Of a DNA stretch of 36,403 nt, positions 917-36,403 are shown piece by piece (within the stretch, counting starts at the first letter, position 1; each line of letters starts with the position of its first letter). The notes beneath the pieces are model-generated. The model did not search any database and was not told the origin of the DNA. It saw only the letters and a list, made by a program, of their open reading frames with translations. This DNA comes from a virus. Taxonomy: Duplodnaviria; Heunggongvirae; Uroviricota; Caudoviricetes. Both the position numbers and the translations under genes were made by a program. The stretch is taken from IMG/VR virus record IMGVR_UViG_2675903318_000021. One strand, written 5' to 3'.

Positions 917-1003
917 GCCCGGATGGTGGAATCGGTAGACACAAGGGATTTAAAATCCCTCGGCGTTCGCGCTGTGCGGGTTCAAGTCCCGCTCCGGGTA
1001 CCA
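917..1003 (+). tRNA. leuZ: tRNA-Leu (anticodon UAA), long-variable-arm type
   Basis: 87-nt sequence GCCCGGATGGTGGAATCGGTAGACACAAGGGATTTAAAATCCC...GGGTACCA; anticodon loop carries TAA. Confidence 0.93.
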
Positions 1004-1046
1004 TGGGAAAGATAAGAATAAAATCAAAGCAATAAGCAGTGTCGTG

Positions 1047-1069
1047 AAACCACCTTCGGGTGGTTTTTT
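1047..1069 (+). terminator. rho-independent terminator of the tRNA operon
   Basis: Hairpin CCACC-TTCG-GGTGG followed by a T7 run. Confidence 0.75.
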
Positions 1070-1543
1070 TGTATTTGTATTTTGTTAAATGGCGGTAAAG
1101 TGGCGATGGTGTGGCGATATGCAGAAATAATGATAGTACACGTCTGTTTAAACTCTAAGGGTGAAGCAAAACTCTCCTGCAACTCATCTGCATTTCGCAT
1201 ATTGAACTAGGGCCTTGGTTAAACCAAAGTTTTTTCTGGGATCTTCCCACTCAACTTCATTTTTCCTCCTACCATCCACCAAAAGGTGTCTGCGCTACTC
1301 TATCTTTTTTAATCTGACAACATCCTGAGAAAAAGACAAATTCGTTAGATTTACTGTCTTTCTGCTGCCTCGAATGCTGATGTCTGCAGCACTGATAATA
1401 ACTCTATCTCTTTGATATAGATCTTTTTTTTGATGAATTGCACGGCATATTATCGTGATGGCACCTTCTTGTTAAAGGTGTTGTACTCCTCATCTCGATT
1501 TTATGATGTGGGCTATGATTGGTTAGTAATAGAGTGTATCGGT

Positions 1544-1825
1544 ATGCGATGTGGTTTATTAATGGCAATCTGCCTTTGTTTGGTATCTTTTAGTGGGTAT
1601 GCAGCAACAGGAAAGTCAGATGCTCAGATCAAGAAAGAAATAATTAAAGAATCCATTGAATCTTATCCAGGCAATTGTGCGTGTCCGTATAATCATGCAA
1701 GGAATGGTAGTAGATGTGGTGGACGCAGTGCATATAGCCGTACTGGAGGGTATGACGTGGTATGTTATGAAAGTGATGTTACCGATGAAATGATCCGGCA
1801 ATGGAAGCAGGAGAATGCTGAGTAA
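1544..1825 (+). CDS. small secreted Cys-rich protein (signal peptide MRCGLLMAICLCLVSFSGYA; motif CACPYNHARNGSRCGGRSAY); function unknown; ORF as listed could start at 1430
   Basis: AT-rich ORF; hydrophobic N-terminal signal-like segment from the internal Met at 1544; several conserved-looking Cys; followed by a hairpin terminator. Confidence 0.45.
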   Translation: MRCGLLMAICLCLVSFSGYAATGKSDAQIKKEIIKESIESYPGNCACPYNHARNGSRCGGRSAYSRTGGYDVVCYESDVTDEMIRQWKQENAE

Positions 1826-1900
1826 TCTCTTTTAACTGATTTGTTGTGCGAGCATTATGTGCAGTTAACGGCTCACTAGCTAGTGAGAGTTCCAAAAAGA

Positions 1901-1928
1901 AACCCCGCAGTTTTTACGCTGCGGGGTT
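1901..1928. terminator. bidirectional hairpin terminator between the Cys-rich ORF (+) and the hok-like gene (-)
   Basis: Stem CCCCGCAG ... CTGCGGGG with T-rich flank on the plus strand and T-rich flank on the minus strand. Confidence 0.55.
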
Positions 1929-2014
1929 GTTATTCATGCCTATGAGATAGGGTGCCTTATCGGCCTTACCCTAGCAACCGATTGACGGGGAGTTGCCTCC
2001 CCGTCGCGGTTTCC

Positions 2015-2155
2015 TTACTGCTTACACTGTAAGAACGCCGCAAACTCCGCTCCCCAGAAGCTCATCCGTATTTCACACAGCGAACCGTGCAGCATCCAGA
2101 TGATGAGGATTACCGTCACGCAGAACGTGATGGCCGTAAGCGATTTTTGCGACAT
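2015..2155 (-). CDS. Hok/Gef-family type I toxin-like small membrane protein (46 aa: MSQKSLTAITFCVTVILIIWMLHGSLCEIRMSFWGAEFAAFLQCKQ)
   Basis: Not in the ORF track (<60 aa). Hand translation of minus strand; AAGGAG RBS 8 nt upstream of ATG; single TM helix followed by SLCEIR and E-x-AAF motifs typical of Hok/Gef toxins; GC-rich hairpin right after the stop (1984-2005). Confidence 0.55.
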   Translation of the reverse strand: MSQKSLTAITFCVTVILIIWMLHGSLCEIRMSFWGAEFAAFLQCKQ

Positions 2156-2344
2156 AGCGCTTGCTCCTTTGTTGGAGAGGCGCTAACCTATCACTTGCTA
2201 GGTTGACGGGTTAGGGCCTCGGTTAAACAGAAATGTTTTCCGGGGCCTTTCCACATCCGGCCTTCGGGTATTCCCTCCGACCATCAGCCGAAAGGCACCC
2301 GCACGTAATCTATCGCTTTTTTGTTACTCCGGCAATTCTGCCTG

Positions 2345-2647: not shown

Positions 2648-3757
2648 TCACTCTGTTTCCGCTATCCATTCCGGGATTTTTGCCTCAAGCTCAAGCTGCG
2701 TGGTAAAGCCGCTGTTATCAATGGTGTGCTCGGCTTTTGCAATAATCCAGTCCTGATTATCAATCTCGCTTTTAAATCCTGTTACCGTGCCATGCATTTC
2801 GGGGTAGAGTTCTGCTCGTCCACGTGCCAGCGTGATGGAGAATGATGCGGCTCCGCGTTGTAGTTGTTGCCACTTTGCCGCCGCTGCGCGTCTTGCTGCC
2901 TGCTCGTTCTGATAAGTCTTGCGTAACACAAACACATTGCCTTCCGCGCCTTCCATATAATCACCTTCACGGCTGCTGCTTTTCTCTTTTTTCGGTTTTG
3001 GCGGTTTGCGGCGTTTCACGCTGACTTTTTTCTTTTTCCCGTAATTAAGATCAAGCCAGTAAGCGCGTACCCCCGTATACGCCTCGCGGTCAGCAATGCG
3101 GAACTGATGGCGATCGCCGCTGCTGCGTGTGATGGCGAACGATGGCAACGGCTGGCCCTGTGCGTTCACGCCACCGCCGGGCATGATGAATAACAGATTA
3201 CCGCTTTTTACCGTGGTGATTGCGCCCAGCATTTCCGCCATGCGCGTAAGGAAGGACATGTCACTTTCTTCGGTCTGGTCGGCGTGGTCGATTTCGATAT
3301 CCATCAGCATTTCGCTGATTTGCGGTTTCAGACCGTACCGATGAGCGATGGCGGATACCACACGCTCAACGGTCACATCATGCCAGGACACCTCACGTTT
3401 AACGTTAAATTCATCCCGAAAATCTGCGCTTCTGGCTGAAACAGTCAGCCTGTCCGGCGGTCCTTCGTGTGCGATTTCATCAACAATGTAAGAGCCTTTT
3501 TCTGTCAGCGGTTCGCCTTTCCAGCCAATGAGAACCGTCAGGCGCGCGCCCCGTGGCGGTAGCCGCAACTGACCATCCGCATCATCCAGCGTGATGGTGA
3601 GCTGGTCTGCCTCAAATCCCCGGTTGTCGGTCAGCGACAGGCTCATCAGGCGCTCTGCCACGCCGGACAGCGTTTTACCCTCCGCGAGAATATCAAAATC
3701 CGGCATTTTTACGGGGTCTGTGCCCTGACTGAGCAATTGCATGGTGGTGTCGGTCAT
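2648..3757 (-). CDS. D: phage late control / tail protein D (gpD-like)
   Basis: Translation from Met at 3757 (MTDTTMQLLSQG...) recognised as P2 gpD-like; GGGAGGG RBS upstream of this Met; ORF track extends spuriously to 3889. Confidence 0.85.
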   Translation of the reverse strand: MTDTTMQLLSQGTDPVKMPDFDILAEGKTLSGVAERLMSLSLTDNRGFEADQLTITLDDADGQLRLPPRGARLTVLIGWKGEPLTEKGSYIVDEIAHEGPPDRLTVSARSADFRDEFNVKREVSWHDVTVERVVSAIAHRYGLKPQISEMLMDIEIDHADQTEESDMSFLTRMAEMLGAITTVKSGNLLFIMPGGGVNAQGQPLPSFAITRSSGDRHQFRIADREAYTGVRAYWLDLNYGKKKKVSVKRRKPPKPKKEKSSSREGDYMEGAEGNVFVLRKTYQNEQAARRAAAAKWQQLQRGAASFSITLARGRAELYPEMHGTVTGFKSEIDNQDWIIAKAEHTIDNSGFTTQLELEAKIPEWIAETE

Positions 3758-3914
3758 CTGTTCCCTCCCTGTGCGGCATGGTCGCATGTGCGTGCGGAGG
3801 GGGTTACTGCTTTTTGTTGTCGCCGGGTCGGGAGAACGGCGCAGGGGTGAGATTACGCGCGTGGTGGGTGATGATTGTTGCCGAATCATTTAACGGATAC
3901 AAGGGGCTGAAGCT

Positions 3915-5099
3915 ATGAGTGAAACTCGTTTTCATGGTGCCCGTGTTACGGAAAATACCGACCTGGTAACAGCGATTAACGATGTTGATTCCAGCGTTAT
4001 CGGTATCGTGGCAACGGCGGATGATGCGGACGCGAAGCTGTTCCCGCTGAACAAGCCTACACTGCTGACCCGCGTCAATGACGTGCTGGGAAAATGCGGA
4101 ACAACGGGGACGCTTTATCGTGCGCTTAAGGCCATCGCAGACCAGGTGAGCACAAAGGTGATCGTCGTTCGCGTGGCTGAACACAAAGAAGAAGACGGTA
4201 AGACGCAGGATCAACTGGTTATCGGTGGTTCTGAGGATGACGGCAGCTATACGGGGATGTATGCGCTGCTTGTTGCAGAGCAGGATGAAAGCATCGGATA
4301 CCGTCCGCGTATTCTGGCCGCGCCGGAGCTGGACACGGAGGCGGTGACAAAATCCCTGTGCGTGATTGCGGGTAAACTGCGCGCGTTTGTGTATGCCACA
4401 TGTCATGGTTGTAACACGATGGCTGAGGCGATTACCTACCGCCAGAAATTCAACGAACGTGAGGTGATGCTCTTATGGCCTGACTTCATCGCCTACAACC
4501 CGAAAAGTGGCAAAAACGAAACGTTCCCCGCGCCTGCTTATGCGTGCGGCCTTCGTGCGTACATTGACCATGAGCAGGGCTGGCACAAATCGCTGTCCAA
4601 TGTTCCGGTTAAAAATGTGCTGGGAATGTCCAGGCATGTGTTCTGGTCGTTGCAGGCCGAAGACAGTGATGCCAACAGCCTCAATAACAAAGAAATCACG
4701 ACCATTATTCGTCGCAACGGGTTCCGCTTCTGGGGCAACCGCACACCGGAAACGAACGCCTACATCTTTGAGGTGTATACCCGAACCGCACAGGTGCTGG
4801 CTGATTCAATTGCGGAAGCGCAGTTTGAAACCATCGACAGTCCACTGACGCCTGCGAACGTGAAGGATGTTATCAGTGCCATCAGGGCAAAACTGGATTC
4901 GCTGGTTACTGCCGGGAAACTGATTGGTGCGGAGTGCTGGTATGACGTGGTGGATAACGGCACCACGGATTTACGTCAGGGACGTGTGCGTATTCGCTAC
5001 AAATATACGCCCGTTCCGCCACTGGAAGACATGGAGCTTTACCAGACGTTTACCGATGAATTCTTTGGTCCCGCATTTGCGGTGCTGGGAGGTGCCTGA
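3915..5099 (+). CDS. FI: contractile tail sheath protein (gpFI-like)
   Basis: 394-aa ORF; N-terminus and length match P2 FI-type sheath proteins; stop overlaps next start (ATGA). Confidence 0.9.
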   Translation: MSETRFHGARVTENTDLVTAINDVDSSVIGIVATADDADAKLFPLNKPTLLTRVNDVLGKCGTTGTLYRALKAIADQVSTKVIVVRVAEHKEEDGKTQDQLVIGGSEDDGSYTGMYALLVAEQDESIGYRPRILAAPELDTEAVTKSLCVIAGKLRAFVYATCHGCNTMAEAITYRQKFNEREVMLLWPDFIAYNPKSGKNETFPAPAYACGLRAYIDHEQGWHKSLSNVPVKNVLGMSRHVFWSLQAEDSDANSLNNKEITTIIRRNGFRFWGNRTPETNAYIFEVYTRTAQVLADSIAEAQFETIDSPLTPANVKDVISAIRAKLDSLVTAGKLIGAECWYDVVDNGTTDLRQGRVRIRYKYTPVPPLEDMELYQTFTDEFFGPAFAVLGGA

Positions 5100-9656: not shown

Positions 9657-10229
9657 GTGCTGTCTTACTTAATGGCAATTCACTTTGTTTTATTTGGGAA
9701 CTCTACTAATTTAAAAAACTTCTGGAAACATGAAGTAATTCGGCGGAAACGTATGGATATCTGGAGGCTTTTAAGAGAGAAAAAGCAGCGTAACCGGAAT
9801 TTCCTTTTCTGGTGGCGGTTGGCTAACGAAATGTATATTAATGGTAATAAATTACATAAAAAAGCAGCCAAAAAGTTAAACAGTAAAATAATTAACAAAT
9901 TTGGTTGTGAAATAGGATTGGGAGCAAATATTGGAAAAGGGTTAACAATTCCCCATCATGCTGGAATTGTTGTTCATTTTGCTGTTGATGCAGGTGAAAA
10001 TCTGGTATTACGACAGAATACTACGATTGGACAGATAGATGGTGACATACCTGGTTCAAGAGTAAAAATTGGTAGTAACGTTGATATCGGAGCTAATTGT
10101 TGCATCATTGGATTATCACGTAAAATCGGGGATAATGTAAAAATAGGCGCAATGTCTTTTATAAATAAAGATATACCATCGAACTGCACATATATAACTA
10201 AAAAGAGCGGTGTTGTATTGTATAAATAG
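9657..10229 (+). CDS. hexapeptide-repeat (left-handed beta-helix) acetyltransferase, WcaB/CysE-like; cargo gene in the Z/fun-equivalent slot
   Basis: AT-rich ORF; AAGGAG RBS 6 nt before GTG at 9657 (ORF track starts at 9624); repeated [LIV]-G-x-x-x-x hexapeptide pattern (GCEIGLGANIGKG, IGSNVDIGANCCIIG, IGDNVKIGAMSFI). Confidence 0.7.
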   Translation: MLSYLMAIHFVLFGNSTNLKNFWKHEVIRRKRMDIWRLLREKKQRNRNFLFWWRLANEMYINGNKLHKKAAKKLNSKIINKFGCEIGLGANIGKGLTIPHHAGIVVHFAVDAGENLVLRQNTTIGQIDGDIPGSRVKIGSNVDIGANCCIIGLSRKIGDNVKIGAMSFINKDIPSNCTYITKKSGVVLYK

Positions 10230-10272: not shown

Positions 10273-10851
10273 TTATTGTGGGGCGACTGGCCACTCAATA
10301 TCCGCTGCTACTGTTGTATCAACACGATTCAACAATACCCGATATGTCTTCCATGCAGCCAGTAACGATGCCTCTTCTTCCGTCGCAATATCCAAATCTA
10401 CAGCATCCTGAAGTGGCGCAATATGCTCGCTAGCTACCTGCATCAGGCTGTTTTTTGTTTCTTCCGCCTCCTGGCTCCGAAACAGTTTTTCTGCTTCTGC
10501 ATCTTTCACCCAGGATGTACCGTTCCACTTCTGAAACTCCCCTTCCGGGGATAACCAGGTGACATTTTCCGGTAATGGGCCAAGTTCAGAAATAAATAAC
10601 GCGTCGCCGGAAGCCACGTCATAGACGGTATAACCCCGATGGTCTTCAACGAGATGCCACGATGCCTCATCAGTGTTGAAAACAGCCACGAAGCCAGCCG
10701 GAATATCTGGCGGTGCAATATCGGTACTGTTTGCAGGTAGACCTGTATGAGGTGGAATATATGCGTCACCGTCACCAATAAATTCATTAGTTCCGGCCAG
10801 CAGATTATAAATTTTGAGGGTTCGTGATTGTTTACTCATTCTGAATGCCAT
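10273..10851 (-). CDS. G: tail fibre assembly protein (gpG-like)
   Basis: 192-aa ORF directly downstream of the fibre gene with overlapping stop/start. Confidence 0.8.
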
Positions 10852-13121
10852 TATGCAAGCCTCACAATATAGTTAAATGCGATGTTTTTGACGGTGTTTT
10901 CCGCGTTACCAGCAGCGTTTACGGTGATGGTGTGTCCATGTGAGCCAATCGCAACGGAGTGCGTGTGTGCACCAATACCGACAGTGTGCTGATGAGAACC
11001 AATACCTACAGTATGAGAATGTGAGCCAGAGGAACCTGTTGTTGCTGATGTATATTGAGTTGCCAGACGCCCAGATGTCAGTGGAATTTTCCCCCACTGG
11101 TTTGCACCATCTGATGTTGGTATTGAATGCGTGTGACTCCCGGCGTTACTGGTAGTTTTGGTCCCATAGTCAAATAGTGAGGTTGTTTTCGTCCCGTAAT
11201 CAAACGACGATGTGGTTTTCGTACCCAAATCCGTACTGGATACGCTGGCGCTGTGGGTGTGCGATTTAATGCCGTCCTGTTCCTGAGACAATACGGCACG
11301 ACCACTGGCGGGCTTGCCCTTAATCGTCCAGCCACGCATATCAGGGATCACGCCTGACGGATAAGCGGCTGCAAGTTTCGGGTAGGCAGATTTGTCAAAA
11401 GTCTGCCCCTGCATCAGGGCATAACCAGACGGAACGGTATCTGATGGCCACGGGATTGGTGCACCGACTGGATAAAACTCTGCAGGAGGATGAGCCGAGG
11501 TGTAAAGCTGCGCCCACGGCGACCAGTTTGCGTCGGTCGTATCCCGTCGTGAACGAATAAATGCCGGAGCATGAGCACCGCTTGTACCACTCCAGCCGAT
11601 GAGTAACTCACCTTCGCCAACGGCTGTCATCCCTTTCAGGTGAATGATATTTCCATACGCTGTTGGATATCCGTTGTTATACACCTCGTATAACTCAAGA
11701 CCTGTTGCCCCCTGCGTATTGTCTGTCAGCGCGGTTACCTGACCTTTTGAAGCCAGATTAACTGATGATACTGCTGTTCCACCTGACGGTAACGCCCCGA
11801 TCTCTGATGCCGTTGGCTTATTTCTGGAGTTATAGTCCCTTCGCCAGCCAGGTGAATAATCTGTTCCGTGATTAATATAGGTAAACTGGGCGTTAGTTGT
11901 TCCACCACCAGTGGAGGTGGTCGGTGTGGTAATGCGGATCGTCATCGCTGACTTTATCCCCATTACTTCAATGACAGCTCCGGCGAGATGAATATTACCG
12001 CAGTCAGTATCAGTAATGATTTTATTATTGCCATAAGACCAGGAACCCTTGCACATCCAGTATGGATGGTTAAATGCTCCCTGAGAATCCAGCCACTCGA
12101 TAAACTGTGCAGTCGTCCAGTTTCCTGTTGTTGTGCTTACTGACCCACCGAAGGCACGGCAGGCACCAATATTTTTCGTAAAGGTGTCTTTGCCAGGGAT
12201 ATCCGCACCGTTCTGATCTTTCTGCAGACGTTTCTCAGCATTGTCATAGGCTGTTTTTACTGCCTTTGGTGTCGCGGCAAGCGTTTCAGATGTGCTGTTG
12301 GTCGCGCTGCTTAGCTGGATTATCCCTTTCTGTGCTGTTGTTGCATCCTGTGCGGTGTATTTCCCGTTAGCCAGGTCATAGGCTGCCTTTACCGCCTTTG
12401 GTGTTGCCGCCAGCGTTTCTGAATCGCTGTTGGTGGCGCTACTGAGCTGGACAATGCCTTTTCGCGCTGTAGTGGCGTCCTGTGCGGTATATTTCCCGTT
12501 AGCAAGGTCATAGGCTGCCTTGACCGCTTTCGGCGTTGCGGCCAGTGCTTCAGACGTGCTGTTGGTGGCGCTACTGAGTTGAACAAAGCCTTTTGCGGTC
12601 AGCGAGGCGTCCGGGTGACGTCGTGACTGTTCATGTTCTTTCAGTTTGTCATTCACGTAATCCACTGTGGCCATAACCATGGTGTTATCCACGGTAAGCG
12701 CCACGGTGGCAGTGCTGGATACGGTCAGAATGGTGCGAAATGTTTGTGCACGTCCGGATCCTTCGGCAACGGCTGGCTTGTAACTTTCGGCAGTATTGCC
12801 CACCGCGATCAAATCGCCGTGCTCATCAAATACACCAATTTCCCGGATCCAGAATCCGCCCGTTTCAGGAGGAATAACCAGCTCCGCAATAATGCGGTTC
12901 TGATGTGTTGCGTCCAGGATGACGCGATTAACAGTATGTCGCCACACCTCATGCACCAGACGGGTCTGCTTACTGTCTGGTGTGGGCAACGTGCCGCCAC
13001 CGTCGCCCACGGCCATGTGAGTCAGGTGGACAGGATTACCATCTGGCGCGGCTGCCTGAGCTAATTTTTTGGCACCAGTATCAGTGATAATGGTTTTAAA
13101 TTTTCGTGTTGTGGTACTCAT
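10851..13121 (-). CDS. H: long tail fibre protein (gpH-like) with internal tandem repeats and His-rich C-terminal repeats
   Basis: 756-aa ORF; conserved P2 H-like N-terminus; three 44-aa tandem repeats; C-terminal HTHS/HxH and [10 protein letters not shown] repeats. Confidence 0.85.
12243..12620. repeat. three tandem ~132-bp repeats inside the tail fibre gene (encode 44-aa repeat VQLSSATNS...[10 protein letters not shown])
   Basis: Direct visual alignment of three consecutive units starting at about 12243, 12375 and 12507. Confidence 0.8.
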
Positions 13122-30809: not shown

Positions 30810-31131
30810 GGTGTGGCCTCTTTGCTCGGTGATAGAAATAGCTCACCATCCAGAGTTGAGAATCTCGGGGTGGCGAGACGTACAGGGTTCTCAACACCGG
30901 AGAGCAAAGAATCCGGCCCGACCGAAGTCGGCCCCGTACGCCCCGCCATAATTCTGACGCGAAAAAGACGTGGCAATACAGTACGCACAAAAAAACCGCT
31001 GGCGCGGTTATGCGCTTTGCTCTGTATCGGGTTGAGAATCCCGGCACCCGTTTTATGAGGTGCAGCGGAAATGTAACCTGACTGATTGCGGCATGGCAAG
31101 CGGTTTTTTTGTGTGTGCATGTTCTGGTTTC

Positions 31132-35401: not shown

Positions 35402-36403
35402 ATGTCGGTTCGTAAGATTCCATCAGGTAAATGGCTTTGCGAATGTTATCCCTACGGGGCATCGGGAAAACGCATTCGTAAACAGTTTGCGACAAAAAGT
35501 GAGGCGCTCTCTTATGAGCGCCGTTTAATGAATAGTAGAGTTGGAGACGAGTTTCAAGATGGTTCTGGTCCTCGTCTTTCTGAGTTGATTGCTCGTTGGT
35601 TTGAGATGTACGGTAAAACCTTGTCCTCTGGTGCAGAGCGCAAAGTCAAACTTGAGGCGATTTGTTCCAGGCTGGGAGATCCATTTGCTTCTCAGTTTGA
35701 CAAAAATATGTTTGCCACTTATCGGGAAAGAAGGCTATCAGGAGAATGGAATCCCAAGGGGAAGAAAAAACTTAGTGAAGCAACCGTTAATCGCGAGCAG
35801 TCATATCTACATGCTGTTTTTGCCGAACTGAAGCGCCTTGGGGAGTGGTCTGGTGAAAACCCCCTGACTGGTATTCGCAAGTTTCGTGAGGAAGAAAAGG
35901 AACTGGCGTTTCTGTATGTAGATGAGATTGAACGCCTTCTGATTGCGTGTGATGAGTCACGGAATAAAGATTTGGGGGTTGTTGTCCGTATTGGGCTTGC
36001 GACTGGTGCTCGGTGGAGTGAAGCAGAAGGATTAAAGCAATCTCAAGTACTGCCCGGTCGAATCACATTTGTTAAAACTAAAGGAAAGAAGAACCGCACT
36101 GTACCGATTTCACCTCAATTGCAGGCTATGCTTCCCAAAAAACGAGGAGCGCTATTTTCACCATGTTATGAGGCTTTTGACGCTGCAATTAAGAGAGCGA
36201 AGATCGAGCTTCCTGATGGGCAATTAACTCATGTGCTACGTCACACGTTTGCCAGTCATTTTATGATGCGGGGCGGAAATATTCTTGTGTTGCAAAAAAT
36301 ACTGGGGCATAGCGATATAAAAATGACTATGCGTTATGCGCATTTTGCTCCAGGTCATTTAGAGGCTGCTGTTGAATTGAACCCTTTTGACAATAGAGGG
36401 TAA
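35402..36403 (+). CDS. int: tyrosine-type site-specific integrase (P2/186 Int-like)
   Basis: 333-aa ORF ending at the window edge; C-terminal catalytic region with R...HxxR...Y pattern (VLRHTFASHFMMRGG...MRYAHF). Confidence 0.9.
   Translation: MSVRKIPSGKWLCECYPYGASGKRIRKQFATKSEALSYERRLMNSRVGDEFQDGSGPRLSELIARWFEMYGKTLSSGAERKVKLEAICSRLGDPFASQFDKNMFATYRERRLSGEWNPKGKKKLSEATVNREQSYLHAVFAELKRLGEWSGENPLTGIRKFREEEKELAFLYVDEIERLLIACDESRNKDLGVVVRIGLATGARWSEAEGLKQSQVLPGRITFVKTKGKKNRTVPISPQLQAMLPKKRGALFSPCYEAFDAAIKRAKIELPDGQLTHVLRHTFASHFMMRGGNILVLQKILGHSDIKMTMRYAHFAPGHLEAAVELNPFDNRG

What the first reader, a model, noticed from the sequence alone, without database searches (positions are those of the whole stretch)
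2015..2344. Unlisted Hok/Gef-like type I toxin locus between the tRNA cluster and ogr
A 46-aa minus-strand ORF (2015-2155) with a strong AAGGAG RBS encodes one TM helix followed by SLCEIR...E-x-AAF...CK, which is the signature architecture of Hok/Gef/HokA-type toxins. The roughly 190-nt leader (2156-2344) and the 3' region show features expected of hok mRNAs: a GC-rich hairpin just after the stop (GACGGGGAG-TTGC-CTCCCCGTC, 1984-2005) and a leader segment CCTAGCAA (2196-2203) complementary to a 3' segment TTGCTAGG (1968-1976), reminiscent of the tac/fbi long-range pairing. It sits at the prophage-host junction, so it may be cargo or a junction islet.
Basis: partly seen in the sequence, partly recalled or inferred. 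Interest (0 to 1): 0.6.

Follow-up and report, generated by a model that had tools for sequence, protein, structure and literature searches.

The report
Prophage-borne hok/sok toxin–antitoxin module
This is a genuine but ordinary hok/sok-type toxin–antisense-RNA module carried as cargo by a P2-like prophage; the same small toxin gene is already annotated in hundreds of E. coli genomes, and a peptide differing by one residue was among those found toxic in a published survey.

Summary
A 46-aa minus-strand ORF (2015-2155) with an AAGGAG ribosome-binding site passes the Pfam Hok/Gef threshold. It sits in a 407-nt, strongly structured transcript (2300 to 1894). The leader matches Rfam's hok-leader model 'sok' end to end, at E 1e-8 but below the gathering score.

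- The leader is about 145 nt, not 190.
- The true 5'-3' (tac/fbi) pairing is 2286-2300 with 1950-1966.
- The CCTAGCAA/TTGCTAGG pairing is real and conserved, but it is a second, inner long-range helix. Its leader half is also the predicted target of the Sok 5' tail.

A Sok-like antisense RNA is predicted on the + strand (about 2196-2250), with promoter TTGCTC-17-TAACCT.

A 124-bp exact att repeat and integrase arm-type repeats place the locus inside the prophage. It is cargo, not a junction islet.

The module occurs in 1751 of 5426 complete E. coli genomes. RefSeq annotates it 'Hok/Gef family protein', and it is present in phage P88. The exact peptide is listed in a 2026 Hok survey, and a V16A variant is listed among the representatives cloned for its toxicity assays.

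The only departure from plasmid R1 hok/sok is the lack of a conserved mok leader ORF. Already known; low interest.

The parts
2307..2335 (-). hok promoter: -35 TTGCCG (2330-2335), 17-nt spacer, -10 TAGATT (2307-2312). It starts 10 nt after the ogr stop codon.
   Evidence: Read directly from the sequence, with coordinates. Both hexamers are conserved in homologues whose upstream context is unrelated, and similarity between modules begins at the -35. The consensus scanner did not report this promoter.
1894..2300 (-). Full-length hok mRNA, 407 nt.
   Evidence: The 5' end is set by position 1 of Rfam RF01794 aligning at 2300 and by the conserved GGGTGCC. The 3' end is the intrinsic terminator on the minus strand. 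The MFE is -182.5 kcal/mol with z = -7.7.
2286..2300 (-). tac-like 5' element, GGGUGCCUUUCGGCU.
   Evidence: It pairs with 1950-1966 in the MFE fold. The duplex dG is -30.4 against shuffles of -18.9 +/- 3.4. A 5'-3' duplex of -21 to -36 kcal/mol is present in 14 of 14 homologues.
1950..1966 (-). fbi-like 3' element, AGGCCGAUAAGGCACCC.
2242..2251 (-). ucb-like box, GAAAGGCCCC, the alternative partner of tac in the 3'-shortened mRNA.
   Evidence: RNAalifold consensus of 14 homologues and the fold of mRNA nt 1-318.
2190..2202 (-). Leader arm CCUAGCAAGUGAU: one half of the second long-range helix, and the predicted target of the Sok 5' tail.
   Evidence: It pairs with 1970-1983 in the full-length fold, and an equivalent duplex is predicted in 14 of 14 homologues. 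In the shortened mRNA it sits in the loop of a GAGGC...GCCUC hairpin.
1970..1983 (-). 3'-UTR arm AAUCGGUUGCUAGG. It carries the same UUGCUAGG as the Sok 5' tail.
2164..2183 (-). hok Shine-Dalgarno AAGGAG (2164-2169) and anti-SD GCGCCUCUCC (2174-2183), which form a hairpin just before the AUG.
   Evidence: MFE folds. Both arms are nearly invariant in 14 homologues.
2015..2155 (-). hok coding sequence: 46 aa, with one hydrophobic helix (about residues 6-23) and Cys27 and Cys44.
   Evidence: Pfam PF01848 30.1 bits against a cutoff of 22. PHROG 251 82.8 bits. dN/dS 0.13-0.50 against homologues. RefSeq WP_000078920.1 'Hok/Gef family protein'. Alignment with known Hok proteins.
1984..2005 (-). GC-rich hairpin 9 nt after the stop codon.
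   Evidence: Compensatory changes occur at 4 pairs.
1894..1928 (-). Intrinsic terminator of the hok mRNA. The same hairpin reads as a terminator-like site on the + strand, after the ORF at 1544-1825.
2161..2189 (+). Predicted Sok promoter: -35 TTGCTC (2161-2166, overlapping the hok SD), 17-nt spacer, -10 TAACCT (2184-2189).
   Evidence: Coordinates. The sense-strand GGTTAG is invariant in 14 homologues. The sokW promoter-down mutagenesis primer changes the equivalent GGTTAG; this is my inference from Table 2 of PMC8621323. The promoter is too weak for the consensus scanner.
2196..2250 (+). Predicted Sok-like antisense RNA, about 55 nt: an unpaired 5' tail (UUGCUAGG...) and a 3' hairpin (2214-2247) followed by UUU.
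   Evidence: Fold. The hairpin is more stable on this strand than on the hok strand in 14 of 14 homologues (-20 to -27 against -12 to -15 kcal/mol), with two alternative inner stems. The ends are inferred, not mapped.
949..1072 (+). attL: an exact 124-bp direct repeat covering the 3' part of tRNA-Leu(UAA) and its terminator. The second copy follows the integrase gene, just outside the window.
   Evidence: AAGTGGCGAT-type repeats lie at 1098-1118 and just after the int stop codon.

Best explanation
The locus is a self-contained hok/sok-type type I toxin-antitoxin module of about 440 bp (2335 to 1894, minus strand). It is carried as accessory cargo by a P2-like (P88/Xuanwuvirus-type) prophage integrated at the tRNA-Leu gene (leuZ position).

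Shown by sequence analysis:
- The ORF encodes a Hok-family membrane peptide under purifying selection.
- The transcript is predicted to close on itself through a 5'-3' helix and a second inner helix.
- The hok Shine-Dalgarno sequence sits in a conserved hairpin.
- The opposite strand carries a conserved promoter-like site and a hairpin that is more stable on that strand.

Inferred by analogy with plasmid R1 hok/sok and from structure prediction:
- The full-length mRNA is translationally inert and masks the Sok target, because the 3'-UTR element UUGCUAGG occupies the same leader segment as the Sok 5' tail.
- Slow 3' trimming releases the 5' end, which then pairs with the GAAAGGCCCC box.
- A new hairpin forms that shows CCUAGCAA in its loop and captures the anti-SD. 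This exposes the hok ribosome-binding site.
- The short-lived Sok RNA pairs with that region and triggers silencing and decay.
- If Sok supply stops, Hok is made, inserts into the inner membrane and kills or lyses the cell.

The most likely roles for the phage are prophage stabilisation, help with lysis on induction (as shown for hokW-sokW), or both.
For: Protein:
- Pfam HOK_GEF above its threshold and PHROG 251 at E 2.5e-23.
- The best NCBIfam match is HokA. Identity is 41% to a HokA-like sequence and 28% to R1 Hok, with the conserved Cys/Thr of the helix and the L-C-E motif.
- Cys27 and Cys44 are invariant in 25 relatives.
- dN/dS is 0.13-0.50.

RNA:
- RF01794 aligns over its full length, from mRNA position 1 to the hok AUG, at E 1.2e-8. 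It does the same in 11 homologues.
- Fold z-score -7.7.
- The 5'-3' helix is kept in 14 of 14 homologues, and an equivalent inner duplex is predicted in all 14.
- The open conformation is predicted by the alignment consensus and by the shortened mRNA.
- The Sok hairpin is strand-asymmetric in 14 of 14 homologues.

Cargo status:
- 124-bp att repeats and arm-type repeats flank the element.
- The same module lies next to ogr in phages P88, Chuche, P884B11 and others.

Prior knowledge:
- RefSeq names the gene 'Hok/Gef family protein'.
- The exact peptide is number 1628 in the supplement of bioRxiv 10.1101/2025.08.07.668861.
- The survey's table of cloned representatives lists variants 72_1621 (V16A) and 72_1589 with plasmid names. 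42 of the 45 homologues tested were toxic, and the three non-toxic ones are from other clusters.
- The R1 mechanism is summarised in PMC9841398. hokW-sokW function is described in PMC8621323.
Against: - No transcript, Sok RNA or toxicity data exist for this exact allele, so RNA ends and promoters are predictions.
- The Rfam score is below the gathering threshold (47.3 against 59), and both NCBIfam Hok models are far below their cutoffs.
- The Sok promoter hexamers are weak (3 of 6 each) and the terminator tail is only UUU.
- There is no mok-type leader ORF. The mok frame has no start codon, and the ORF from the conserved upstream AUG (2256) stops at positions from -101 to +134 in different homologues. 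[quoted passage not shown] The activation step therefore cannot be copied from R1 and rests on predicted folds only.
- The biological role in a P2-like prophage is untested.
Confidence: 0.9

Rival explanations
1. It is a decayed, inactive hok relic. The ORF and RNA resemble hok/sok, but the lack of a mok leader ORF means Hok is never translated, as was proposed for some chromosomal hok loci.
For: There is no start codon in the mok frame, and the upstream ORF is variable. In R1, stop codons in mok upstream of hok abolish toxicity. Earlier authors suggested that chromosomal hokA, hokB and hokC loci are inactive, as summarised in the preprint introduction.
Against: - The ORF is intact in every full-length homologue sampled, and dN/dS is 0.13-0.50.
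- The promoter, SD hairpin, Sok promoter and both long-range helices are conserved in different genomic contexts.
- The module is present in 1751 of 5426 genomes.
- The lack of mok is shared by the whole cluster rather than being a lesion of this allele.
- Cluster representatives are listed among the peptides cloned for the toxicity assays, and none of the three non-toxic peptides is from this cluster.
Confidence: 0.07
2. It is a host-side junction islet or a remnant of an older element at the tRNA-Leu gene, not part of the P2-like prophage.
For: About 1.3 kb lies between the tRNA and ogr, and it contains a second, truncated hok leader. The left part (1073-1893) has no match in the phage records listed.
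Against: - The 124-bp repeat brackets everything from 1073 to the integrase, and no third att copy was seen in 990-2400.
- Arm-type repeats abut the core on both sides.
- The hok module lies next to ogr in free phage genomes and in related prophages at other sites such as serS and raiA.
- In the two genomes whose context was examined (EDL933 and 55989), 1073-1893 lies beside this prophage.
Confidence: 0.03

Closest known systems
Hok 'cluster 72' of Escalera-Maurer et al. (bioRxiv 10.1101/2025.08.07.668861); RefSeq WP_000078920.1; PHROG 251 'MokW-like host killing'
   Same: The exact 46-aa peptide is listed in the survey supplement as number 1628. The cloned representative 72_1621 differs only by V16A. 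The gene has the same position next to ogr in phage P88 and related phages.
   Different: Nothing at the protein level. The survey deliberately did not analyse the Sok, mok or mRNA structure of these loci, and those are described here.
hok/sok of plasmid R1
   Same: - A small membrane toxin with the SLCEIR motif.
- A roughly 400-nt mRNA closed by 5'-3' pairing.
- A GC-rich hairpin after the stop codon, and the fbi element just before the terminator.
- The SD held in a hairpin.
- An antisense RNA gene whose -35 overlaps the hok SD, with 17-nt spacing.
- An alternative tac/ucb pairing after 3' shortening (PMC9841398).
   Different: - 28% protein identity, and 46 rather than 52 aa.
- No mok: the position of the R1 mok AUG, 58 nt upstream of hok, reads AAC here (R1 sequence recalled from memory), and no conserved overlapping ORF exists.
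- The Rfam score is below the gathering threshold.
- It is carried by a prophage rather than a plasmid.
HokA (E. coli chromosomal hokA)
   Same: It is the best NCBIfam match, and both periplasmic cysteines are encoded, as in HokA. Identity to a HokA-like sequence is 41%.
   Different: It scores 35.8 bits against the HokA equivalog cutoff of 89, so it is not a HokA orthologue. Its genomic context is also different.
hokW-sokW of Stx2 prophage Sp5 (PMC8621323)
   Same: Both are prophage-borne hok/sok modules, and the Sok -10 lies at the equivalent GGTTAG of the sense strand. hokW-sokW shows experimentally what such a module can do for a phage: earlier lysis and about twofold more released phage.
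   Different: HokW is 51 aa and belongs to the HokD-like cluster 35, with about 30% identity. It sits in a lambdoid rather than a P2-like phage. Stx2a phages additionally carry a cluster-72 module whose DNA is 83% identical to this one.

Membership tests
Hok/Gef protein family (Pfam PF01848) | Match to the family HMM at or above the curated gathering score | tested here: met
   30.1 bits against a cutoff of 22, E 3.7e-7, residues 7-44 on profile positions 5-42 of 42.
Hok/Gef protein family (Pfam PF01848) | A peptide of about 50 aa with an N-terminal hydrophobic helix, a conserved L-C-E motif and a C-terminal periplasmic tail. The cysteine pair corresponds to Cys29/Cys46 of HokB. | tested here: met
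   In the alignment with R1 Hok, HokB-E, a HokA-like sequence, PndA, SrnB and HokW, C12, T14, L26, C27 and E28 are conserved. C27 and C44 are invariant in 25 relatives, with the same 17-residue spacing as 29/46 (cysteine role).
Hok/Gef protein family (Pfam PF01848) | Toxic to the cell when expressed | not testable with these tools
   From the literature only. The one-residue variant 72_1621 and 72_1589 are listed with plasmid names among the survey's cloned representatives, and none of the three non-toxic peptides named is from this cluster. The exact allele has not been tested.
HokA (NCBIfam NF007290, equivalog) | Score at or above the curated equivalog cutoff | tested here: not met
   35.8 bits against 89. 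It is related to HokA but is not a HokA orthologue.
Hok family toxin (NCBIfam NF007279, subfamily) | Score at or above the curated cutoff | tested here: not met
   23.6 bits against 73.
PHROG 251 (MokW-like host killing) | Match to the phage protein family profile | tested here: met
   82.8 bits, E 2.5e-23, full length.
[quoted passage not shown] | Match to Rfam RF01794 (hok leader / sok) at the gathering score | tested here: not met
   47.3 bits against 59, although E is 1.2e-8 and the match covers model positions 1-157. All 11 homologues with a hit also fall below the threshold, at 38.6-53.5 bits.
[quoted passage not shown] | A roughly 400-nt mRNA whose 5' end pairs with a 3' element just upstream of the terminator (tac/fbi) | tested here: met
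   The mRNA is 407 nt. The pairing is in the MFE fold. The duplex dG is -30.4 against shuffles of -18.9 +/- 3.4, and it is kept in 14 of 14 homologues.
[quoted passage not shown] | A cis-encoded antisense RNA (Sok) within the leader, 5' of the toxin ORF | tested here: inconclusive
   There is a promoter-like TTGCTC-17-TAACCT with an invariant -10. The hairpin plus UUU is more stable on the antisense strand in 14 of 14 homologues. No expression data are available, and the promoter is below the scanner's criteria.
[quoted passage not shown] | An overlapping leader ORF (mok) whose translation is coupled to hok | tested here: not met
   No ATG, GTG, TTG, CTG or ATH codon lies in the mok frame upstream of hok. 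The ORF from the conserved upstream AUG ends 35 nt before the hok AUG here, and at positions from -101 to +134 in homologues.
[quoted passage not shown] | 3' processing to an active mRNA and RNase III cleavage of the Sok duplex | not testable with these tools
   Only predicted refolding of shortened mRNAs is available.

The most novel reading that the evidence does not exclude
The whole 46-aa Hok cluster, including this locus, may be a mok-independent variant of hok/sok. In this reading translation is switched directly by RNA refolding. A 3'-UTR copy of the Sok 5' tail (UUGCUAGG) masks the Sok target in the full-length mRNA. After 3' trimming, a hairpin (GAGGC...GCCUC) captures the anti-SD and opens the hok ribosome-binding site. 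Sok binding to the 5' arm of that hairpin would release the anti-SD again.
Probability: 0.3. Interest if true: 0.3.

Novelty: already known. Interest (0 to 1): 0.1.

Why it matters
It matters little beyond correct annotation. The finding shows that the small toxin gene missed by the first gene list is real and belongs to a very common prophage-borne Hok cluster.

Two practical points follow.
- Rfam's 'sok' model misses every leader of this cluster that was scanned at its gathering score. The antitoxin RNA therefore goes unannotated, even where the toxin CDS is annotated.
- This cluster lacks a recognisable mok ORF. That makes it a convenient natural test of whether mok-coupled translation is essential for hok control. 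The recent Hok survey explicitly left this question open.

Tried and rejected
- The consensus promoter scan of 1000-2700 found neither the hok nor the Sok promoter. Its only hit, at 1475-1447, is unrelated. Both promoters were placed by homology and conservation instead.
- RNAalifold on 14 homologues did not return the tac/fbi helix. Two sequences are shifted by 2 nt in that part of the alignment, and the consensus chose the alternative tac/ucb pairing. I therefore tested the 5'-3' pairing sequence by sequence with RNAduplex.
- I looked for a mok ORF in three ways: canonical and near-cognate starts in both alternative frames, in-frame N-terminal extension, and the ORF from the conserved upstream AUG. 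None is conserved.
- I considered the 28-aa ORF (2198-2284) and the 21-aa ORF (2191-2256) as leader peptides. Both were rejected because their frames and stops are not conserved.
- The genome-contig scan gave only 7 loci. Three were in assemblies labelled Planococcaceae, Vagococcus and Xanthomonas; these are probably contamination and were not used.
- A literature search for hok in P2-like phages found nothing specific.
- The second hok-like leader (1208-1310) was checked as a possible second locus. It has no hok ORF, no Sok promoter region and no Rfam hit at E<=1.

Full report
**Setting.** The window begins with pgsA and the tRNA-Gly/Cys/Leu cluster (701-1003). It then runs through a P2-like prophage to the stop codon of its integrase at 36403. 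In a complete E. coli genome carrying nearly the same DNA, the element lies between the tRNA-Leu gene and yecA.

An exact 124-bp direct repeat brackets the element. It covers the 3' part of tRNA-Leu plus its terminator. One copy is at window 949-1072; the other follows the integrase gene. AAGTGGCGAT-type repeats lie just inside both copies, at 1098-1118 and just after the int stop codon. These look like integrase arm-type sites (inference). Everything from 1073 onward, including the finding, is therefore inside the integrated element.

**The observation.**
- The ORF is at 2015-2155 on the minus strand and encodes 46 aa.
- AAGGAG lies 8 nt before the ATG.
- The hairpin at 1984-2005 is present.
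- The 8-nt complementarity lies at 2195-2202 and 1970-1977, which is 1-2 nt from the coordinates given.

**The protein.**
- It passes the Pfam Hok/Gef threshold, at 30.1 bits against 22.
- It matches PHROG 251 at E 2.5e-23.
- Its best NCBIfam match is HokA, but it falls far below both curated NCBIfam cutoffs. It is a family member, not a HokA orthologue.
- Aligned with the known toxins, it keeps the helix Cys/Thr and the L-C-E motif. Identity is 41% to a HokA-like sequence and 28% to R1 Hok.
- Cys27 and Cys44 are invariant among 25 relatives. They have the spacing of the Cys29/Cys46 pair, which is reported to form a disulfide needed for HokB toxicity.
- Against homologues, dN/dS is 0.13-0.50, so the ORF is under purifying selection.

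**The mRNA.** Rfam's RF01794 is called 'sok', but it is written in the hok-mRNA sense. It runs from the mRNA 5' end to the hok AUG. It aligns over its full length to 2300-2145 on the minus strand at E 1.2e-8, below its gathering score (47.3 against 59). Eleven homologous loci behave the same way.

- The 5' end is therefore about 2300, and the leader is about 145 nt.
- Upstream lie TTGCCG-17-TAGATT (2335-2307), immediately after the ogr stop codon.
- No terminator-like site was found between ogr and hok.
- A minus-strand intrinsic terminator lies at 1928-1894.
- The resulting 407-nt RNA folds with z = -7.7.

In that fold, nt 1-15 (2286-2300) pair with 1950-1966, just upstream of the terminator. 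This is the tac/fbi arrangement described for R1. The same 5'-3' duplex, at -21 to -36 kcal/mol, is present in all 14 homologues examined. Its inner half differs in sequence between homologues.

One perfect 8-mer is expected about 0.3 times by chance. An equivalent duplex is nevertheless predicted in all 14 homologues, with sequence differences in both arms. It clearly beats shuffled controls (at most 1 of 300) in 9 of them, including the window, and is marginal (4-18 of 300) in the other 5.

The hok SD is held in a hairpin with GCGCCUCUCC. Both arms are nearly invariant.

**The antisense RNA.** On the + strand, TTGCTC (2161-2166, overlapping the hok SD) and TAACCT (2184-2189) are 17 nt apart. 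The corresponding sense-strand GGTTAG is invariant in 14 homologues. From the primer table of the hokW-sokW paper, I infer that the sokW promoter-down mutation alters the equivalent GGTTAG.

Downstream lie an unpaired tail beginning UUGCUAGG and a hairpin (2214-2247) followed by UUU. In all 14 homologues this hairpin is 5-14 kcal/mol more stable on the antisense strand than on the hok strand. This is because of G-U pairs, and two alternative inner stems occur. That asymmetry is what an antisense RNA gene predicts. The promoter is weak by consensus and was not reported by the scanner. No expression data are available.

**Conformational switch (inferred).** Folding the mRNA shortened to nt 1-318, and the alignment consensus of 14 homologues, both give an alternative 'open' form.
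- tac pairs with GAAAGGCCCC (2242-2251).
- A hairpin GAGGC...GCCUC forms. It shows CCUAGCAA in its loop and takes up part of the anti-SD, leaving the SD largely unpaired.

This parallels the R1 full-length/truncated switch. The 3'-UTR arm and the Sok tail share UUGCUAGG and compete for the same leader segment. That would explain why the full-length RNA is inert to Sok (inference).

**The one real difference from R1.** In R1, a mok ORF starts 58 nt upstream of hok, and its translation is required. Here the mok frame has no start codon of any usual kind. An upstream AUG (2256) with a GAAGG SD is conserved in 12 of 14 homologues. Its ORF ends anywhere from -101 to +134 relative to the hok AUG. 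Here it is 21 codons long and ends 35 nt before hok. The motif is more likely conserved as RNA, because it overlaps the ucb-like box. The lack of mok is a property of the whole cluster, not damage to this allele.

**Distribution and prior knowledge.**
- The 453-bp module has a match in 1751 of 5426 complete E. coli genomes. It is nearly always annotated 'Hok/Gef family protein' and usually lies next to ogr.
- The exact protein is RefSeq WP_000078920.1.
- The module lies next to ogr/D in phages P88, Chuche, P884B11 and others, annotated 'MokW-like host killing'.
- Copies with 73-83% DNA identity lie in lambdoid Stx2a phages and other islands.
- Similarity between contexts starts at the hok -35 and stops at the terminator, so the module is a discrete unit.
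- A 2026 preprint surveying Hok diversity lists this exact peptide (number 1628). Its table of cloned representatives lists 72_1621 (V16A) and 72_1589 from the same cluster with plasmid names. It reports that 42 of the 45 homologues tested were toxic, and the three exceptions are from other clusters. [quoted passage not shown]
- For a different prophage module, hokW-sokW, deletion halved phage release after induction.

**Verdict.** The locus is ordinary and already catalogued. The corrections concern the leader length, the identity of the tac/fbi pair, and its status as prophage cargo. The lack of a mok ORF across this Hok cluster is the only point that might repay experiment.

Noticed in passing
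window 1208-1310 (minus strand), extending to about 1322: There is a second, truncated copy of the hok promoter and 5' leader. It matches 2212-2322 with a local alignment score of 55, against 16.5 +/- 2.3 for shuffles and a maximum of 26 elsewhere in the window. It has no hok ORF, no Sok-promoter region and no Rfam hit. It lies next to the attL arm and looks like a relic of an earlier hok module or of recombination near attP.
   Followed up: partly
window 1544-1825 (+): This ORF encodes a 93-aa cysteine-rich protein with a signal-peptide-like N terminus (MRCGLLMAICLCLVSFSGYAA...). It matches PHROG 27544 (unknown function, E 1.5e-59) and no Pfam family. The 1073-1893 segment matches 654 E. coli genomes, and in the two examined (EDL933 and 55989) it lies beside the prophage at the tRNA-Leu gene.
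   Followed up: partly
window 949-1072 and 1098-1118; L001 37555-37564 and 37660-37783: A 124-bp exact att repeat, unusually long, covers the 3' part of tRNA-Leu(UAA) and its terminator. AAGTGGCGAT/GTGGCGAT repeats lie on both sides of attP and are probably integrase arm-type sites.
   Followed up: partly
window 30866-30953 and 30989-31063 (minus strand): Rfam hits above the gathering score to C4 antisense RNA (78.5 bits) and isrK (62.8 bits) lie side by side in the early region of the prophage.
   Followed up: no
window 10310-10508 (minus strand): An Rfam IS009 hit (189 bits, gathering score 117) lies inside the region annotated as the tail fibre assembly gene.
   Followed up: no
window about 25928-27203 (minus strand); L001 27078-28353: The P2-like prophage carries genes annotated as plasmid segregation protein ParM and a plasmid partitioning/stability protein, next to the replication endonuclease gene.
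   Followed up: no
window about 9657-10229 (+); L001 10807-11379: A serine O-acetyltransferase gene sits between the tail genes and the tail fibre genes. It is probably another accessory (moron) gene.
   Followed up: no
L011 1546-1963 (E. coli JNEC-KY175): This is a mosaic hok module. Its promoter and leader are almost identical to the window's, but the coding sequence is very divergent (dS about 2.1). That points to recombination inside the module. In this prophage a Com/DNA-methyltransferase pair lies between hok and the att end.
   Followed up: no
L018 5772-7315 (E. coli O157:H7 EDL933): In the EDL933 prophage at the same tRNA-Leu site, an IS30 element occupies the place of hok, ogr and part of gene D.
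   Followed up: no
L004, L005, L008: Identical or near-identical copies of this enterobacterial hok locus occur in assemblies labelled Planococcaceae, Vagococcus sp. and Xanthomonas pisi. The most likely cause is contamination of those assemblies.
   Followed up: no
window 12237-12593: Three tandem 132-bp repeats, 75-82% identical, lie inside the large tail fibre gene.
   Followed up: no
window 2648-5099: The D-ogr-hok block is on the opposite strand to the tail sheath and the genes that follow it. The same arrangement is seen in phage P88, where the tail protein gene next to hok and the tail sheath gene are on opposite strands. From memory, this differs from the P2 gene order.
   Followed up: no
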